Positions 10,204 to 27,518 of a stretch of 64,000 nt of DNA are shown one piece after another (within the stretch, counting starts at the first letter, position 1; every line of letters begins with the position of its first letter). This DNA is from Candidatus Omnitrophota bacterium (GTDB lineage: Bacteria > Omnitrophota > Gorgyraeia > Gygaellales > Profunditerraquicolaceae), in NCBI GenBank assembly GCA_035402765.1, contig DAONDX010000002.1, positions 1,173-65,172 of the forward strand. Direction: 5' to 3'. The notes beneath the pieces were generated by a model. That model saw only the letters and a program-made list of their open reading frames with translations, made no database searches and was not told where the DNA came from. The translations under genes and the position numbers were made by a program.

Positions 10204-10273
10204 CAGTTTGGGTTAAAATACACCAACCGCTTGTTCCAGGAAACCCGGAATAGCTGCTATTAGAAAAAATTAA

Positions 10274-10345
10274 GCCGATGAGTGGAATCGAACCACCGAC
10301 CTTGACTTTACGAAAGTCCTGCTCTACCAACTGAGCTACATCGGC
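10274..10345 (-). tRNA. tRNA-Thr (anticodon CGU); no encoded CCA
   Basis: RC reads GCCGATG-TA-GCTC-AGTTGGTA-GAGC-A-GGACT-TTCGTAA-AGTCA-AGGTC-GGTGG-TTCGATT-CCACT-CATCGGC. Cloverleaf with a 7-nt anticodon loop TTCGTAA. Confidence 0.8.
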
Positions 10346-10724: not shown

Positions 10725-10824
10725 CCCCTAGCCTTATGCGGCTGACGGGGAATTTAGTAATAGATAGTCAAAAGCTTATGGCTTATCAAATCATAAGCTC
10801 AATTTCAAGAAAAGGAGAATCAAG

Positions 10825-11025
10825 ATGGCAAAGGGTAAAGTAAAATGGTTTAGTAATCAAAAGGGTTATGGATTTGTTACTTCTGAAGACGGCAAAGATG
10901 TTTTTATTCACTTCAGCGCTATCACTGGAGAAGGATATAAATCTTTAGCGGAAGGTGATGAGGTTGAATTTGAGGTTACCCAAGGACCCAAAGGTGACCA
11001 GGCAACTAACGTAAAAAAGATATAA
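10825..11025 (+). CDS. cspA: Cold-shock protein, CspA family
   Basis: [33 protein letters not shown]; RNP1/RNP2 motifs. Confidence 0.9.
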
Positions 11026-11046
11026 CTTTTACGTATTAACAAACCG

Positions 11047-11080
11047 GAAAAGACCAGTTCGCAACAGAACTGGTCTTTTC
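11047..11080. terminator. Bidirectional terminator hairpin, 14-bp perfect stem GAAAAGACCAGTTC/GAACTGGTCTTTTC, shared by the convergent cspA and 11079 genes
   Basis: Perfect inverted repeat flanked by T/A runs; overlaps the stop codon of the minus gene. Confidence 0.6.
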
Positions 11081-12554
11081 ATTTATCGAATACTTCTTTT
11101 AGAATTACATTTGCGATATTGGTAGCCAGAAGCCGGTTGCCTTTATCTGTACAATGCCCAAAATCCCCGGCAAACATATCCCTAAAATACTCCTTATAAC
11201 TGGATTGCCGGAGGGCTTCTTTAAATATTTTCTCATTATCGACAAAGATCACCCCGGTATCATTCTTGAATATTCTTTTTAACGGTTCTACATCGCGCAT
11301 CGGATACTGCATACAGACTAATTTTACCCCGCGGCGATCGAGGATTTCTTTAAGCTTGCGGTAGTTGTTAACGGTAGTAGGATTATAGAACCACAGTTTT
11401 AACTGATTGGCTTTTTTGGCATATTCTTCGGCTAAAACCGGTTTTCCTATTTGTTCAGCCAACACTGTAATCGCCTGGCAAGACCTGCTGGAATCAAAAT
11501 TTCTAGCGCCAGAATTTATGATCTGCCTGATGACCTCTTCGGCTTCCGGGAATTTACTGCAGCTTACATAAAGCCATCCTAATGCAATGTATGACTTGCT
11601 ATCCTGAGGATTTTCCGCTATAGATTTCTTAAAGGCCTCTTCGGCTTCCGGGAATTTACCTTGAGCTGCATAAACCCGCCCTAAGGTATCATAAACATAT
11701 GAACTATAGCTAGGATTAAACTCTAAGGCTTTCTTATATAAAACTTCGGCTTTTAGAAATTTGTTTCGGATTCGGTAGATATCCCCTAACCCCCAATAAG
11801 CCTTGCCGTTTTTAGGATTTAATGCTATGGCTTTATTGAGTAAATCTTCCGCCTGGGAATATTCACCCTCTCTGCGTAAAAACCGGCTTAAATCAATATA
11901 ATTTTGATCATTTTTAGGATTTAATGCCATAGTTTTTTTAAAAAGCTCCGGGCTTAAAACAGGCTCCATACCGCCTTCAGTCTTAATTTGGGAAAGCCCC
12001 TCCAAAAAACAGCTATCTTCCTGAGGCTGATAAAAACCTGCTTCTTTAGCCTTGGCCAAGATATGTAAACCAATAAACCGGATTAATTTATAAGTTTTTA
12101 AGGACCTGATCAAAAGCAGCCCCTTAGAAGTAGTGGCTGCTTCAAAAGGGATATGCTCTCCCCGGTCATTAACCCCCATCATCGCCACGACCATGTCCGG
12201 CTGGACCAAAACCAGATTAGATTCAAGTTGGCTTATTATAGTGGGAGTAACCATGCCTCCTCTGCCTTTATCAATGACGCTAAATTTTATTCCGATATTG
12301 CGTTGATTTAAGATTGCTTCAAGAAACCGGGGATATTCTCCCTGGGTAGTAGATTCTCCTAAGCAAAGGATCCGGTAGGCGTCTTTTTGTTTTAAAGATT
12401 GAGAATTTCTGAATTCCTGCGCCGATAATAAAATAAACCCGCCCAAGCGCAGGCCGATCTCTAAAAGTACAAAAAATAGAAATAACCCGAATAATACCAG
12501 GCCGATTTTTTGCTTAAAAAGTAACTTTGGCTGCGAAGGCTTGTTTTGCTGCAT
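11079..12554 (-). CDS. Membrane-anchored SGNH/GDSL-like hydrolase with a TPR-repeat insertion, paralog 1
   Basis: N-terminal TM helix; block I CLGESTT, block III GVND; central TPR repeats; C-terminal block V DFGHCTDKG. Confidence 0.55.
   Translation of the reverse strand: MQQNKPSQPKLLFKQKIGLVLFGLFLFFVLLEIGLRLGGFILLSAQEFRNSQSLKQKDAYRILCLGESTTQGEYPRFLEAILNQRNIGIKFSVIDKGRGGMVTPTIISQLESNLVLVQPDMVVAMMGVNDRGEHIPFEAATTSKGLLLIRSLKTYKLIRFIGLHILAKAKEAGFYQPQEDSCFLEGLSQIKTEGGMEPVLSPELFKKTMALNPKNDQNYIDLSRFLRREGEYSQAEDLLNKAIALNPKNGKAYWGLGDIYRIRNKFLKAEVLYKKALEFNPSYSSYVYDTLGRVYAAQGKFPEAEEAFKKSIAENPQDSKSYIALGWLYVSCSKFPEAEEVIRQIINSGARNFDSSRSCQAITVLAEQIGKPVLAEEYAKKANQLKLWFYNPTTVNNYRKLKEILDRRGVKLVCMQYPMRDVEPLKRIFKNDTGVIFVDNEKIFKEALRQSSYKEYFRDMFAGDFGHCTDKGNRLLATNIANVILKEVFDK
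11084..11402 (-). repeat. ~315-bp segment near-identical (>=99%) to 12587..12905, encoding the identical C-terminal 108 aa of both paralogs
   Basis: Direct nucleotide comparison; the rest of the two genes is ~75-80% identical. Confidence 0.85.
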
Positions 12555-12577
12555 AAGATTAGCGTAAGTTGATTTTA

Positions 12578-14026
12578 TTATTTATCAAATACTTCTTTTA
12601 GAATTACATTTGCGATATTGGTAGCCAGAAGCCGGTTGCCTTTATCTGTACAATGCCCAAAATCCCCGGCAAACATATCCCTAAAATACTCCTTATAACT
12701 GGATTGCCGGAGGGCTTCTTTAAATATTTTCTCATTATCGACAAAGATCACCCCGGTATCATTCTTGAATATTCTTTTTAACGGTTCTACATCGCGCATC
12801 GGATACTGCATACAGACTAATTTTACCCCGCGGCGATCGAGGATTTCTTTAAGCTTGCGGTAGTTGTTAACGGTAGTAGGATTATAAAACCACAGTTTTA
12901 GCTGACGAACGATGTCTGTATATTCTTGCGCTGATTTATCTTGATTGGTTTTTTCGGACAATGCCAGAATTGCCCTATAAGCATTATCATTTTGGGGATC
13001 TATCTCTACGGCTTTTTTAAATAAAGCTTCGGCTTGCGGGAGTTTGCCTTGGTTTACATAAAGCCATCCCAGTTTAAAATAGACATAGTTGTTCTGCGGA
13101 TTTAATTCCAGGGCTTGCTTAAGCAAAGCTTCGGCTTGCGGGAGTTTGCCTTGATACATATAATTCCATCCTAATTCGCTATAAGCATTATCATTCCTGG
13201 GATTTATTTCTAAGGTTTTCTTGAATAAATCTTCAGCTTGAGGAAATTTATGCTGATCCCGCAAAAGCCGGCCCAGCTCAAAACAGGCATCATCATTGTT
13301 AGGATTCAATTCCATGGCTTTTTTGAATAGATCTTCAGCTTCCGGGAATTTACCCTGATCCCGCAAAAGCCGGCCCAATCTCACATAAGCATTATCCTCT
13401 TGAGGATTAAGTTTTATAATTCTATCCAGCGTCTTTGCGGCTTGTTCAGGGTCTATCTTTGGATCAGGCGGCAAAACATTTCCCTGGGGAATTTTATTTT
13501 TTAATCCGGTGGCCGGTGGATTTTTAAATTTCTGAACAATATGCATATACACAAGCCGCATAAACCTATATGTCCGGCAATGCCGGAATATTCCTGCAGC
13601 CGCTTCAGGAATATCTTGATAATAACTAATTCCCGCATCGTTACCACCAGCCATTATAATTACCATATCCGGCTTATAGCTTTTCAGATTTTGCTCTAAA
13701 TTCAAAAGTATAGCCGTGGTATTGGTCCCGATAACACCTTTATCAATTACGCTGAATTTTATCCCGGTATTGCGCTGGTTTAAGATCTCTTCCAAAGCCC
13801 CGGGGAACTGCCCGGCAGTAGTAGATTCCCCTAAACAAAGGATCCGGTAGCTGTCTTTCTGTTTTATGGACTGCAAATTTCTATGTTCTTGCACGGAGAT
13901 AAAAATAAATCCGCCCAGGCGCAGGCCGATCTCCAGGAGCATAAAACACAAAAATAGCCCGTATAATACCAGGGCTATTTTTTTATTAAAAAGTATTTTT
14001 GGTTTTAACAACCTGTTTTCCCGCAT
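12578..14026 (-). CDS. Membrane-anchored SGNH/GDSL-like hydrolase with a TPR-repeat insertion, paralog 2
   Basis: Same architecture as 11079..12554; the TPR array differs in length and sequence. Confidence 0.55.
   Translation of the reverse strand: MRENRLLKPKILFNKKIALVLYGLFLCFMLLEIGLRLGGFIFISVQEHRNLQSIKQKDSYRILCLGESTTAGQFPGALEEILNQRNTGIKFSVIDKGVIGTNTTAILLNLEQNLKSYKPDMVIIMAGGNDAGISYYQDIPEAAAGIFRHCRTYRFMRLVYMHIVQKFKNPPATGLKNKIPQGNVLPPDPKIDPEQAAKTLDRIIKLNPQEDNAYVRLGRLLRDQGKFPEAEDLFKKAMELNPNNDDACFELGRLLRDQHKFPQAEDLFKKTLEINPRNDNAYSELGWNYMYQGKLPQAEALLKQALELNPQNNYVYFKLGWLYVNQGKLPQAEALFKKAVEIDPQNDNAYRAILALSEKTNQDKSAQEYTDIVRQLKLWFYNPTTVNNYRKLKEILDRRGVKLVCMQYPMRDVEPLKRIFKNDTGVIFVDNEKIFKEALRQSSYKEYFRDMFAGDFGHCTDKGNRLLATNIANVILKEVFDK
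12587..12905 (-). repeat. Partner of the 11084..11402 identical segment
   Basis: See above. Confidence 0.85.
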
Positions 14027-14066
14027 AGCATAAAAGGGGAGTCATAATCACTCCCCTTAAATTAAA

Positions 14067-14138
14067 TGCCGAGAGAGGGAATCGGACCCCCCACGCCGGC
14101 CTTTTCAGGGCCGCGCTCTACCACTGAGCTATCTCGGC
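14067..14138 (-). tRNA. tRNA-Phe (anticodon GAA); no encoded CCA
   Basis: RC reads GCCGAGA-TA-GCTC-AGTGGTA-GAGC-G-CGGCC-CTGAAAA-GGCCG-...-TCTCGGC-A. Confidence 0.8.
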
Positions 14139-27249: not shown

Positions 27250-27264
27250 TTTGTTCCTGTTAGG

Positions 27265-27465
27265 TTATAACTTCACTACTTTAGTAGCTTGTTCACCTTT
27301 GGGACCTTTTTCAATCTCAAACTCAACCTCTTGGCCCTCCTCGAGAGTTTTATAGCCATCACCCTGAATTGCAGTATGATGCACAAACACATCAGCACCG
27401 TTCTCAGGAGTAATAAAACCATAACCCTTTTGATTGGAAAACCACTTTACTTTACCCTTTGCCAT
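27265..27465 (-). CDS. Cold-shock protein, CspA family (paralog 2)
   Basis: [33 protein letters not shown]. Confidence 0.9.
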
Positions 27466-27518
27466 TTTCTTTACTTCCTCCTTTCCACTTAATTATAACA
27501 AACTTAAGGGAATAATTA

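What the first reader, a model, noticed from the sequence alone, without database searches (positions are those of the whole stretch)
11079..14026. Tandem paralogous genes with near-identical 3' 315 bp but divergent remainder, suggesting concerted evolution or a recombination cassette
Segments 11084-11402 and 12587-12905 are at least 99% identical and encode an identical 108-aa C-terminus. The N-terminal and TPR regions are only ~65-80% identical and differ in TPR count. This pattern fits recent gene conversion of the 3' end, or a design that allows recombinational shuffling of the variable TPR middle between fixed ends. The pair lies with cspA between two tRNA genes, a context typical of accessory islets.
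Basis: seen in the sequence. Interest (0 to 1): 0.55.

Follow-up and report, generated by a model that had tools for sequence, protein, structure and literature searches.

The report
Gene conversion between tandem esterase paralogs
Two neighbouring, anciently diverged genes for membrane-anchored SGNH-esterase/TPR proteins in an uncultured Omnitrophota bacterium have had their last 326 bases made almost identical by recent gene conversion, which is a well-known process and not a special recombination device.

Summary
Window 11081-11406 and 12580-12905 (offset 1499) are 326 nt with 3 mismatches, including 299 nt that match exactly, and they encode an identical 108-aa C-terminus. The rest of the two genes is 35-80% identical, with saturated synonymous divergence. 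The genes are tandem, probably co-transcribed paralogs of a large Omnitrophota family: an N-terminal membrane anchor and an SGNH hydrolase domain split by a TPR array. The shared tract encodes the C-terminal half of the catalytic domain, including the Asp/His motif. Four lines of evidence point to recent gene conversion: a sharp tract boundary, dS 0.05 inside versus ≥0.9 outside, disagreement between the N-part and C-part phylogenies, and a syntenic relative whose single gene is only about 73% identical in this tract. Four independent assemblies show the repeat. More than half of all strain differences fall in gene B's copy, and each alternates with gene A's allele. This suggests repeated short A→B conversion, although assembler cross-talk is not excluded. 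Six other arrays of the family (71 paralog pairs) show no such homogenisation, and the TPR middles do not vary among strains, so a "shuffling cassette" design is not supported. Only the slot next to tRNA-Phe is variable; gene A, csp and both tRNAs are conserved. This is an ordinary mechanism acting in an uncharacterised family.

The parts
11079..12554 (-). Gene A, 491 aa: N-terminal TM anchor, SGNH N-half, TPR array, SGNH C-half. It is the ortholog by position and linker type of the single gene in relative L027.
   Evidence: ORF; Pfam TPR families plus Lipase_GDSL_2 N-half; identical protein in two independent contigs; linker and N-part closest to P0105/P0081/P0049
12578..14026 (-). Gene B, 482 aa (annotated as 477 aa from a downstream start). 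Same architecture as A but a different N-part/linker subtype.
   Evidence: ORF; P0001 = HPT38724.1; Pfam; N-part 57% identical to A versus 68% to P0110 from another genome
11081..11406 (-). Copy of the homogenised tract in gene A (codons 384-491). It does not vary among the available assemblies, so A is the probable donor.
12580..12905 (-). Copy of the homogenised tract in gene B (codons 375-482), the probable recipient. It contains the strain-polymorphic sites 12749, 12763, 12877, 12878, 12887 and 12901.
11089..11387 (-). 299-nt core that matches 12588-12886 exactly.
12555..12577 (-). 23-nt spacer between the B stop (TAA TAA) and the A start. It has no terminator, so the pair is probably co-transcribed.
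11047..11080 (-). 14-bp-stem hairpin starting in the A stop codon, a terminator-like element shared with the convergent csp. Homology between the two copies ends here.
   Evidence: mismatch pattern
12432..12509 (-). Gene A membrane anchor (aa 16-41), preceded by Lys/Arg-rich residues. The inferred topology is N-in, with the catalytic part outside the cytoplasm.
   Evidence: sequence; long helix 13-57 in the model of B; the topology is inference
13904..13981 (-). Gene B membrane anchor (aa 16-41).
12345..12359 (-). Gene A SGNH block I (GESTT, putative nucleophile Ser68). Block III GxND lies at 12165-12176.
   Evidence: these columns are invariant in alignment A1
13817..13831 (-). Gene B SGNH block I (GESTT). 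Block III GxND lies at 13637-13648.
11154..11165 (-). Gene A SGNH block V (D-F-G-H, the Asp/His of the triad), inside the converted tract. The gene B equivalent is at 12653-12664.
   Evidence: the TPR-deleted profile aligns to SGNH structures across the junction
11406..11969 (-). Gene A TPR array plus capping helix, inserted between SGNH strands 3 and 4 (four clear units and one degenerate).
12906..13453 (-). Gene B TPR array: five 34-aa (102-nt) units, with adjacent units ~73% identical.
14067..14138 (-). tRNA-Phe(GAA) upstream of B. The slot just downstream of it is the variable position when compared with L027.
10825..11025 (+). Cold-shock-domain gene convergent with A, 100% aa conserved in L027. 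It is core context, not part of the feature.
10273..10345 (-). tRNA-Thr(CGT), conserved in L027. It is core context.

Best explanation
Genes A and B are anciently diverged tandem paralogs of an Omnitrophota-expanded family. Each protein has a membrane anchor and an SGNH hydrolase domain whose N-half (Ser, Gly, Asn blocks) and C-half (Asp-x-x-His block) are separated by an inserted TPR array. The last 326 nt of the two genes were homogenised recently by non-reciprocal homologous recombination (gene conversion) between the two direct copies. This happened after the split from the lineage of relative L027 but mostly before the sampled strains diverged.

The tract runs from the TPR/C-domain junction to the stop codon, where homology ends. 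Gene A is the more likely donor and gene B the recipient. Further short-patch A→B conversions appear to be still occurring among strains. As a result, two enzymes with different nucleophile halves and different TPR arrays share one identical C-terminal half of the catalytic domain.

Shown: the tract, its boundaries, the homogenised silent sites, the phylogenetic incongruence, its absence from other arrays, and its presence in independent assemblies. Inferred: the RecA-type mechanism, the direction, the ongoing patch conversion, the extracytoplasmic esterase/acyl-transfer function, and co-transcription.
For: - Sharp boundary. 50 of the 90 positions just upstream of the tract differ, and then only 3 of 326 differ.
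- Silent sites. dS = 0.047 and dN = 0 in the 108 tract codons, versus dS 0.93 to saturated and dN 0.17-0.52 elsewhere. Fisher P=5e-14 on synonymous codons; permutation maximum run 47 versus 299 observed.
- Phylogenetic incongruence. A's N-part is 72-74% identical to P0105/P0081/P0049 from other genomes but 57% to B. B's N-part is 67-68% identical to P0110/P0018. The C-part is 100% identical between A and B, and at most 76% to anything else.
- Syntenic relative L027. Its flanking proteins are 84-100% identical. It has one family gene with an A-type linker, and its C-terminal tract is 70-76% aa and 68-79% nt identical to the A/B tract.
- Not a family property. 71 within-locus paralog pairs in six other arrays have C-terminal 327-nt identity of 0.59-0.85. 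C-part minus N-part identity is about 0-0.08 there, against +0.35 here.
- Independent assemblies. L019 carries both copies. The L020/L021 and L023 contigs break inside the repeat, as expected for a real repeat.
- Population pattern. 6/11, 2/4 and 6/10 of all mismatches to the window lie in B's 326-nt copy and none in A's (P=5e-7). At each site one allele equals A's base, and with A included all four gametes occur.
- Domain assignment. Block I, III and V residues are invariant. The predicted strands are 60-64, 91-95, 121-125 | TPR helices | 402-406, 426-429. A TPR-deleted profile aligns to SGNH structures across the deletion junction (9hi6_A, 7c23, 2hsj) and hits Lipase_GDSL_2 in 18/18 members.
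Against: - Direction is weakly determined. The C-part phylogeny does not favour A-type over B-type relatives (mean identity 0.70 vs 0.68), and only three A copies were seen.
- The mosaic B haplotypes come from metagenome assemblies, at least some from short reads. Bubble collapsing or mis-phasing inside a repeat could create or erase the few differences.
- No relative carrying both A and B orthologs with divergent ends was found, so 'conversion' versus 'duplication remnant plus 5' replacement' is decided by parsimony only.
- A third, unsampled paralog acting as donor to both genes cannot be excluded. Only 64 kb of the genome was available, and the C-term word search did not return full-length proteins.
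- About 75% pre-existing identity is low for initiating RecA-dependent exchange.
Confidence: 0.8

Rival explanations
1. Duplication remnant. Gene A, the single ancestral gene as in L027, was recently duplicated in tandem. The 5' ~1.1 kb of the upstream copy was then overwritten by ectopic recombination with a B-type paralog from elsewhere. On this view the identical 3' ends are what is left of the duplication rather than a converted patch.
For: L027 has one gene in this position. The sequence upstream of that gene (tRNA-Phe 3' end plus hairpin) is homologous to the sequence upstream of B, and its downstream flank (csp) matches that of A. The window therefore differs by exactly one 1499-nt unit.
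Against: It needs two events instead of one. No protein more than 63% identical to B was found apart from B's own strain variants. The 23-nt B-A spacer shows no remnant of a duplicated upstream region. B's N-part and linker subtype is old and widespread, which fits an old resident paralog just as well.
Confidence: 0.1
2. Programmed diversification. The identical 3' end, together with the conserved 5' end, serves as a fixed recombination anchor so that TPR middles are shuffled between copies or strains. This would be a cassette system analogous to antigenic-variation loci.
For: TPR number varies widely in the family (455-788 aa). The family forms tandem arrays of up to at least 10 genes. Contig L022 carries a single hybrid gene made of a foreign 5' end, B's middle, the tract and A's downstream flank, with both junctions in conserved family segments.
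Against: - No silent cassettes and no inverted repeats; no recombinase among the Pfam-annotated genes of the locus.
- The 5' ends are only 70-80% identical.
- The TPR middles are essentially invariant in four strains: 0 differences in B's middle and at most 2 in A's TPR array, plus 1 in its 5' part.
- No other array shows identical ends.
- Direct repeats produce deletion or duplication, not shuffling.
- L022's 5' segment has atypical GC (0.556) and could not be found anywhere else, so an assembly chimera is at least as likely.
Confidence: 0.04
3. Assembly artefact. The assembler collapsed or copied one 3' end onto the other, so the near-identity does not exist in the cells.
For: All the data are metagenome assemblies. 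The few differences between copies change from assembly to assembly, which could reflect bubble popping.
Against: Four independent assemblies from different samples give the same structure. Two contigs end inside the repeat, which is the expected behaviour for a genuine repeat longer than k. The copies keep 3-5 consistent differences. Collapse could only exaggerate an identity that was already very high, with at most 7 variable sites in 326 nt.
Confidence: 0.03
4. Ancient constrained domain. The C-terminal module is identical because purifying selection forbids change.
For: The module is the best conserved part of the family and carries the catalytic Asp/His.
Against: Silent sites are identical as well (dS 0.047 vs ≥0.9). 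The nearest of 2,509 cluster representatives is 76% identical at the protein level. The syntenic ortholog is about 73% identical. Other paralog pairs are 59-85% identical at the nucleotide level.
Confidence: 0.01

Closest known systems
Gene conversion / concerted evolution of bacterial paralogs (e.g. tuf and rrn copies, and M. tuberculosis antigen and virulence-associated loci). Background from my own knowledge; see titles and abstracts of PMC6053082 and PMC13061034.
   Same: A non-reciprocal copy of a bounded tract between paralogs. Silent sites are homogenised, paralogs resemble each other more than orthologs do within the tract, and the recipient becomes a polymorphism hotspot.
   Different: Only one sub-domain, the 3' quarter of the gene, is homogenised, and the paralogs are otherwise at saturated divergence. 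The tract makes a chimeric catalytic domain in B. There is no evidence of long-lasting concerted evolution: other arrays of the family lack it.
SGNH/GDSL hydrolases with a domain inserted in the catalytic fold, such as peptidoglycan O-acetylesterase Ape1 with its inserted CBM. This comparison is recalled from my own knowledge and was not tested here.
   Same: Blocks I, III and V are present. The fold has five parallel strands interrupted by an inserted non-catalytic module. The protein is probably extracytoplasmic.
   Different: The insert is a 4-12-unit TPR array, not a carbohydrate-binding module. Block I reads GES, not GDS. The protein has an N-terminal membrane anchor. The substrate is unknown. 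No curated family covers the C-terminal half: Pfam and NCBIfam give only an N-half GDSL hit and generic TPR hits.
Recombination-based variation loci (pilE/pilS, vlsE, tprK; shufflons). Recalled from my own knowledge.
   Same: Conserved ends flank a variable middle, and related copies sit close together.
   Different: The defining features are not met here: no silent cassettes, no dedicated recombinase or inverted sites, and no variation of the middle among strains.
tRNA-associated genomic islets
   Same: The variable slot lies immediately 3' of tRNA-Phe. In L027 that slot holds a 1558-nt insert bounded by an exact 18-nt repeat of the tRNA 3' end.
   Different: In the window there is no duplicated tRNA end and no compositional deviation, and no integrase is annotated at the locus. 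Gene A, csp and tRNA-Thr are conserved core genes.

Membership tests
Gene conversion tract between paralogs | A bounded segment of near-identity flanked on the alignable side by much lower identity | tested here: met
   326 nt at 99.1% identity, versus 44% identity in the 90 nt upstream. Homology ends at the stop codon.
Gene conversion tract between paralogs | Synonymous sites homogenised inside the tract only | tested here: met
   dS 0.047 inside versus 0.93 to saturated outside. Identical degenerate codons: 101/104 inside versus 101/171 outside.
Gene conversion tract between paralogs | Phylogenetic incongruence between the tract and the rest of the gene | tested here: met
   In the N-part, A and B each lie closer to proteins of other genomes than to each other. 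In the C-part they are identical, and at most 76% identical to all other proteins.
Gene conversion tract between paralogs | Orthologs in a related genome are not homogenised | tested here: inconclusive
   L027 has only the A ortholog, whose tract is ~73% aa identical to A/B. No relative with both genes was found.
Gene conversion tract between paralogs | Identified donor and recipient | tested here: inconclusive
   A's copy is invariant and B's copy is a mosaic across strains, which favours A→B. The C-part phylogeny is neutral.
SGNH/GDSL hydrolase superfamily | Conserved blocks I (GDS-like Ser), III (GxND) and V (DxxH) | tested here: met
   GESTT, GxND and DFGH are invariant in 30 family members. 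Block I has Glu in place of Asp.
SGNH/GDSL hydrolase superfamily | Profile match over the whole domain | tested here: met
   Full-length proteins: Lipase_GDSL_2 matches the N-half only (B 39.8 bits, above the 32.9 cut-off; A 31.1, below it). With the TPR region removed, 18/18 members match, and the PDB profile alignments run across the junction into the C-half.
SGNH/GDSL hydrolase superfamily | Five-stranded parallel sheet with an assembled Ser-Asp-His site | tested here: inconclusive
SGNH/GDSL hydrolase superfamily | Esterase or acyltransferase activity | not testable with these tools
   Requires biochemistry.
Programmed recombination cassette / shufflon-type system | Silent or partial donor cassettes, or invertible segments bounded by inverted repeats | tested here: not met
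   There are two complete same-strand ORFs. The only inverted repeats found are short chance-level pairs.
Programmed recombination cassette / shufflon-type system | A dedicated recombinase nearby | tested here: not met
   The Pfam-annotated genes of the source-contig locus, about 10 kb on each side, include no recombinase or integrase family; three small ORFs there have no Pfam hit. The rest of the window was not scanned for recombinases.
Programmed recombination cassette / shufflon-type system | The variable middle differs among cells or strains | tested here: not met
   B's middle has 0 differences in L019, L020 and L023. Outside the tract gene A has one difference in L019 (12408, 5' part) and two in L023 (11722 and 11727, in the TPR array). 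Variation sits inside the 3' tract instead.
tRNA-linked genomic islet | Direct repeat of the tRNA 3' end, an integrase, atypical composition, absence from relatives | tested here: not met
   The window has only one copy of the tRNA-Phe 3' end, no integrase annotated at the locus and typical GC. A, csp and both tRNAs are present in L027. Only gene B's slot differs between the two genomes.

The most novel reading that the evidence does not exclude
The B-A pair may be a live recombination hotspot in a rapidly evolving, massively expanded Omnitrophota family of cell-envelope enzymes. Repeated short-patch conversion, repeat-mediated deletion (the B::A fusion seen in L022) and exchange with distant paralogs (L022's foreign 5' end) would continually generate chimeric catalytic domains and copy-number variants. 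In that case the family's conserved N- and C-modules would act in practice as portable recombination anchors around variable TPR arrays.
Probability: 0.1. Interest if true: 0.55.

Novelty: new member of a known kind. Interest (0 to 1): 0.3.

Why it matters
The mechanism, gene conversion between tandem paralogs, is textbook, so the finding itself is of modest interest. Its value is threefold.

1. It is a clean natural example in an uncultured phylum of sub-domain conversion. Gene B ends up with a chimeric catalytic domain: its own Ser/Gly/Asn half combined with A's Asp/His half.
2. It warns annotators and MAG users that this locus breaks short-read assemblies and concentrates apparent strain SNPs.
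3. It draws attention to an uncharacterised and very large family: at least 2,000 clusters at 50% identity, in arrays of up to at least 10 genes. These are membrane-anchored SGNH hydrolases split by a TPR array. At this locus the family gene is only 50-54% identical to its counterpart in L027, while neighbouring genes are 84-100% identical. The family may be relevant to envelope or host/prey interaction biology in Omnitrophota.

Tried and rejected
- Exact-pattern scans of metagenome contigs, one for L022's unique 5' segment and one for the tract core, both returned nothing. Even the JGI contigs already in hand were not found, so that collection does not cover these samples.
- A protein word search with the 108-aa tract returned only short fragments at most 81% identical and did not even list A or B. 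It therefore cannot exclude a third full-length donor.
- A protein search with L022's upstream ORF found no candidates.
- The genome-contig scan with B found only distant relatives at most 39% identical. It did not find the source genome or close species.
- Inferring donor direction from the C-part phylogeny was uninformative.
- Short proteins that hit the C-module were checked as possible TPR-less, unsplit SGNH versions. Six of the eight fetched are 5'-truncated fragments still carrying TPRs. The other two are a GC-rich-looking N-terminus (P0203) and a GNAT fusion (P0240). No unsplit version was found.
- Purifying selection, a tRNA-islet origin of the whole pair, and an invertible or shufflon design were considered and rejected (see rivals and membership tests).
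Full report
**1. Observation**

The region holds two same-strand (-) ORFs separated by 23 nt: gene A at 11079-12554 (491 aa) and gene B at 12578-14026 (482 aa). Self-BLAST of the 64-kb window finds one long near-identical repeat, 11081-11406 vs 12580-12905. It is 326 nt at 99.08% identity.

At the constant offset of 1499 nt the only mismatches are at 11088, 11388 and 11402, plus 11080 in the stop codon (TGA vs TAA). Positions 11089-11387 match exactly over 299 nt. The last 108 residues are identical.

Outside the tract, aligned identity is 70-80% over the first 300 nt and 35-68% in the linker and TPR part. In permutations of the mismatch columns the longest identical run never exceeded 47, against 299 observed.

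The claimed difference in TPR count is not borne out: the TPR regions align in register with five units each, A's fifth being degenerate, and the 9-aa length difference lies in the linker.

**2. What the genes are**

Pfam finds many TPR families plus Lipase_GDSL_2. The GDSL match covers only profile positions 1-95 (gene A) and 1-137 (gene B) of 178, in residues 64-164 and 64-206 respectively. NCBIfam gives only sub-threshold TPR matches.

In an alignment of 30 family members the invariant residues include GES(68)TT, G127-x-N129-D130 and D455-F-G-H458. These correspond to SGNH blocks I, III and V. Block V lies in the C-terminal module.

The AlphaFold model of B (pLDDT 74.9) has these elements in order:
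- a long N-terminal helix (13-57)
- strands 60-64, 91-95 and 121-125
- a low-confidence linker
- TPR helices 193-376
- strands 402-406 and 426-429

When the TPR region is removed in silico, the family profile aligns to solved SGNH esterases straight across the junction (9hi6_A query 40-154; 7c23 18-114; 2hsj 33-135). All 18 constructs then match Lipase_GDSL_2.

The proteins are therefore membrane-anchored SGNH hydrolases whose catalytic domain is split by a TPR insertion. The homogenised tract encodes the C-terminal half of that domain. Extracytoplasmic location and action on envelope glycans or lipids are inference only.

The C-module has 2,509 representatives among 50%-identity clusters at E≤1e-3. 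It is always C-terminal, and its best identity to the A/B tract is 76%. The full-length search found relatives mostly labelled Omnitrophota, 455-788 aa long.

**3. Source and independent assemblies**

The window is part of contig CAZRBT010000004.1 of an Omnitrophota MAG, GCA_964598445.1. The same locus occurs, 99.8-99.9% identical, in three other assemblies:
- L019 (JGI 3300010352) carries both genes complete.
- L020/L021 (GCA_035354355.1 / ERZ795026) end inside B's copy of the repeat.
- L023 (JGI 3300025858) ends inside A's copy of the repeat.

The repeat is therefore real, and it behaves as a repeat in assembly.

**4. Why this is gene conversion and not constraint**

- Nei-Gojobori estimates give dS = 0.047 and dN = 0 for the 108 tract codons. 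Elsewhere dS runs from 0.93 to saturated and dN is 0.17-0.52.
- Identical degenerate codons number 101/104 inside the tract versus 101/171 outside (P=5e-14).
- The upstream boundary is abrupt. 50 of the 90 preceding positions differ.
- The downstream boundary is the stop codon. Beyond it, A has a terminator-like hairpin and B has the spacer.
- A and B belong to two old sub-types that differ in the linker after block III: 'GEHIPFEAATTSKG…' versus 'ISYYQDIPEAAAGIFRHCRTYRF…'. Each sub-type is shared with proteins from many other metagenomes.
- A's N-part is 72-74% identical to P0105, P0081 and P0049 but 57% to B. B's best N-part matches are 67-68% (P0110, P0018). In the C-part A equals B, and the next best match is 76%.

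**5. Syntenic relative**

L027 (GCA_043802105.1) shares the surrounding gene order: GH1, patatin, three small ORFs, SNF, tRNA-Phe on one side and csp, tRNA-Thr, MFS, Rnf on the other. Flanking proteins are 84-100% identical.

L027 has a single family gene, P0081, next to csp. It has an A-type linker, but its C-terminal tract is only 70-76% aa and 68-79% nt identical to the A/B tract.

Between tRNA-Phe and P0081, L027 carries a 1558-nt insert bounded by an exact 18-nt repeat of the tRNA 3' end. The insert encodes a 390-aa multi-TM ORF with no Pfam match. The hairpin that precedes B in the window precedes P0081 in L027.

Three conclusions follow:
- A, csp and both tRNAs are core genes.
- Only the slot after tRNA-Phe is variable.
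- The homogenisation postdates the split of the two lineages.

L027 cannot tell us whether B was gained here or lost there.

**6. Not a family-wide design**

Six other arrays were examined: L002, L003, L006, L014 (at least 10 tandem paralogs), L015 and L017.
- They contain no inter-paralog segment of at least 85% identity.
- Their 71 within-locus pairs have C-terminal 327-nt identities of 0.59-0.85.
- C-part minus N-part protein identity is about 0-0.08 in every array, against +0.35 for A/B.

**7. Population pattern**

Within the tract, the A copies (window, L019 and the part of L023 available) are identical. The B copies show three haplotypes at six sites, with a seventh site fixed between A and B.

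| Copy | Sites 1-6 | Site 7 |
|---|---|---|
| A (all copies) | TC-TA-AG | C |
| B, window | CT-TA-AG | T |
| B, L020 | CT-TA-GA | not covered |
| B, L019 and L023 | TC-GG-GA | T |

These sites account for 6 of 11, 2 of 4 and 6 of 10 of all mismatches between the window and L019, L020 and L023 respectively. None falls in A's copy (P=5e-7).

With A included, all four gametes occur. The pattern therefore needs recombination or conversion, or else recurrent mutation. The simplest reading is repeated short A→B conversion of a B tract that still carried a few private variants.

A caveat applies. These are metagenome assemblies, and bubble collapsing within a repeat could produce similar mosaics. However, such noise should affect A as often as B.

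**8. L022**

This MEGAHIT contig (ERZ27257449) has one hybrid gene made of four parts:
- 432 nt of unrelated 5' sequence, consisting of the C-terminus of an AMP-ligase-like ORF (GC 0.556, reached by only 0.16% of window 216-mers), a small ORF and a different family N-terminus
- B's middle, 99.3% identical
- the tract, carrying B-type alleles up to the position equivalent to 11250 and the A allele at 11088
- A's downstream flank, 99.7% identical over 3.4 kb

It is either a genuine repeat-mediated deletion plus rearrangement or an assembly chimera. Searches for its 5' part found nothing, so this remains open.

**9. Verdict**

Its first interpretation, recent gene conversion of the 3' end, is well supported. 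The 'recombination cassette' alternative fails each defining test:
- There are no silent cassettes and no inverted sites, and no recombinase is annotated within about 10 kb on either side.
- The TPR middles do not vary among strains.
- Other arrays show no recurrence.

The 'islet' idea holds only for the slot occupied by B.

The main residual uncertainties are:
- the direction of conversion
- whether the identical ends are instead a duplication remnant with later 5' replacement (about 10%)
- how much of the strain mosaic is an assembly effect

The phenomenon is a new instance of a known process in an uncharacterised family. Interest is modest.

Noticed in passing
L027 6386-7961 (relative GCA_043802105.1, contig JAZDLL010000116.1): A 1558-nt insertion sits immediately after tRNA-Phe, bounded by an exact 18-nt direct repeat (TCCCTCTCTCGGCATTTA, the tRNA 3' end). 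It carries a 390-aa multi-TM ORF with no Pfam hit and no integrase. It looks like a minimal tRNA-targeting insert or the remnant of one.
   Followed up: partly
L022 1-1804 (ENA ERZ27257449 k141_816633): A single hybrid family gene combines a foreign GC-rich 5' segment, gene B's middle, the shared tract and gene A's downstream flank, which amounts to a 1499-nt deletion relative to the window. It is either a real recombinant or an assembly chimera. The 5' part was not found in any collection.
   Followed up: partly
window 12749, 12763, 12877, 12878, 12887, 12901: Half or more of all SNPs between the window and three other assemblies of the same population fall in gene B's 326-nt copy of the tract, and none in gene A's copy.
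   Followed up: yes
L014 (JGI 3300036886, contig Ga0334826_000133, 110 kb): A tandem array of at least 10 paralogs of the same split-SGNH/TPR family lies within 22 kb and runs off both ends of the locus. L002 has 5, L015 has 4 and L017 has 3. The family is massively expanded in Omnitrophota and relatives.
   Followed up: partly
window 11079-14026 vs L027 8001-9581: The family gene at this conserved locus is only 50-54% identical to its counterpart in L027, while the flanking SNF, MFS, RnfC, patatin and csp proteins are 84-100% identical. Either the gene evolves unusually fast or it has been replaced by another paralog.
   Followed up: partly
P0240 (261 aa, from the representative search): The C-terminal SGNH module is fused to a GNAT-acetyltransferase-like N-terminus instead of the usual SGNH N-half and TPR array. 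This is either another possible mosaic or a chimeric contig.
   Followed up: no
L015 16028-16676; L016 7471-7781: Adjacent 102-nt TPR units within one gene are 85-87% identical, compared with about 73% in gene B. This suggests recent intragenic expansion or homogenisation of TPR units.
   Followed up: no
window 27264-27468 vs 10822-11026: A second cold-shock-domain gene in the window is 75% identical at the nucleotide level to the csp gene next to gene A.
   Followed up: no
window 14023-14069: A hairpin (AAGGGGAGTGATTATGACTCCCCTT) sits between the tRNA-Phe 3' end and the start codon of gene B. It is conserved upstream of P0081 in L027. It may be a tRNA terminator or processing element that overlaps B's translation start.
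   Followed up: no
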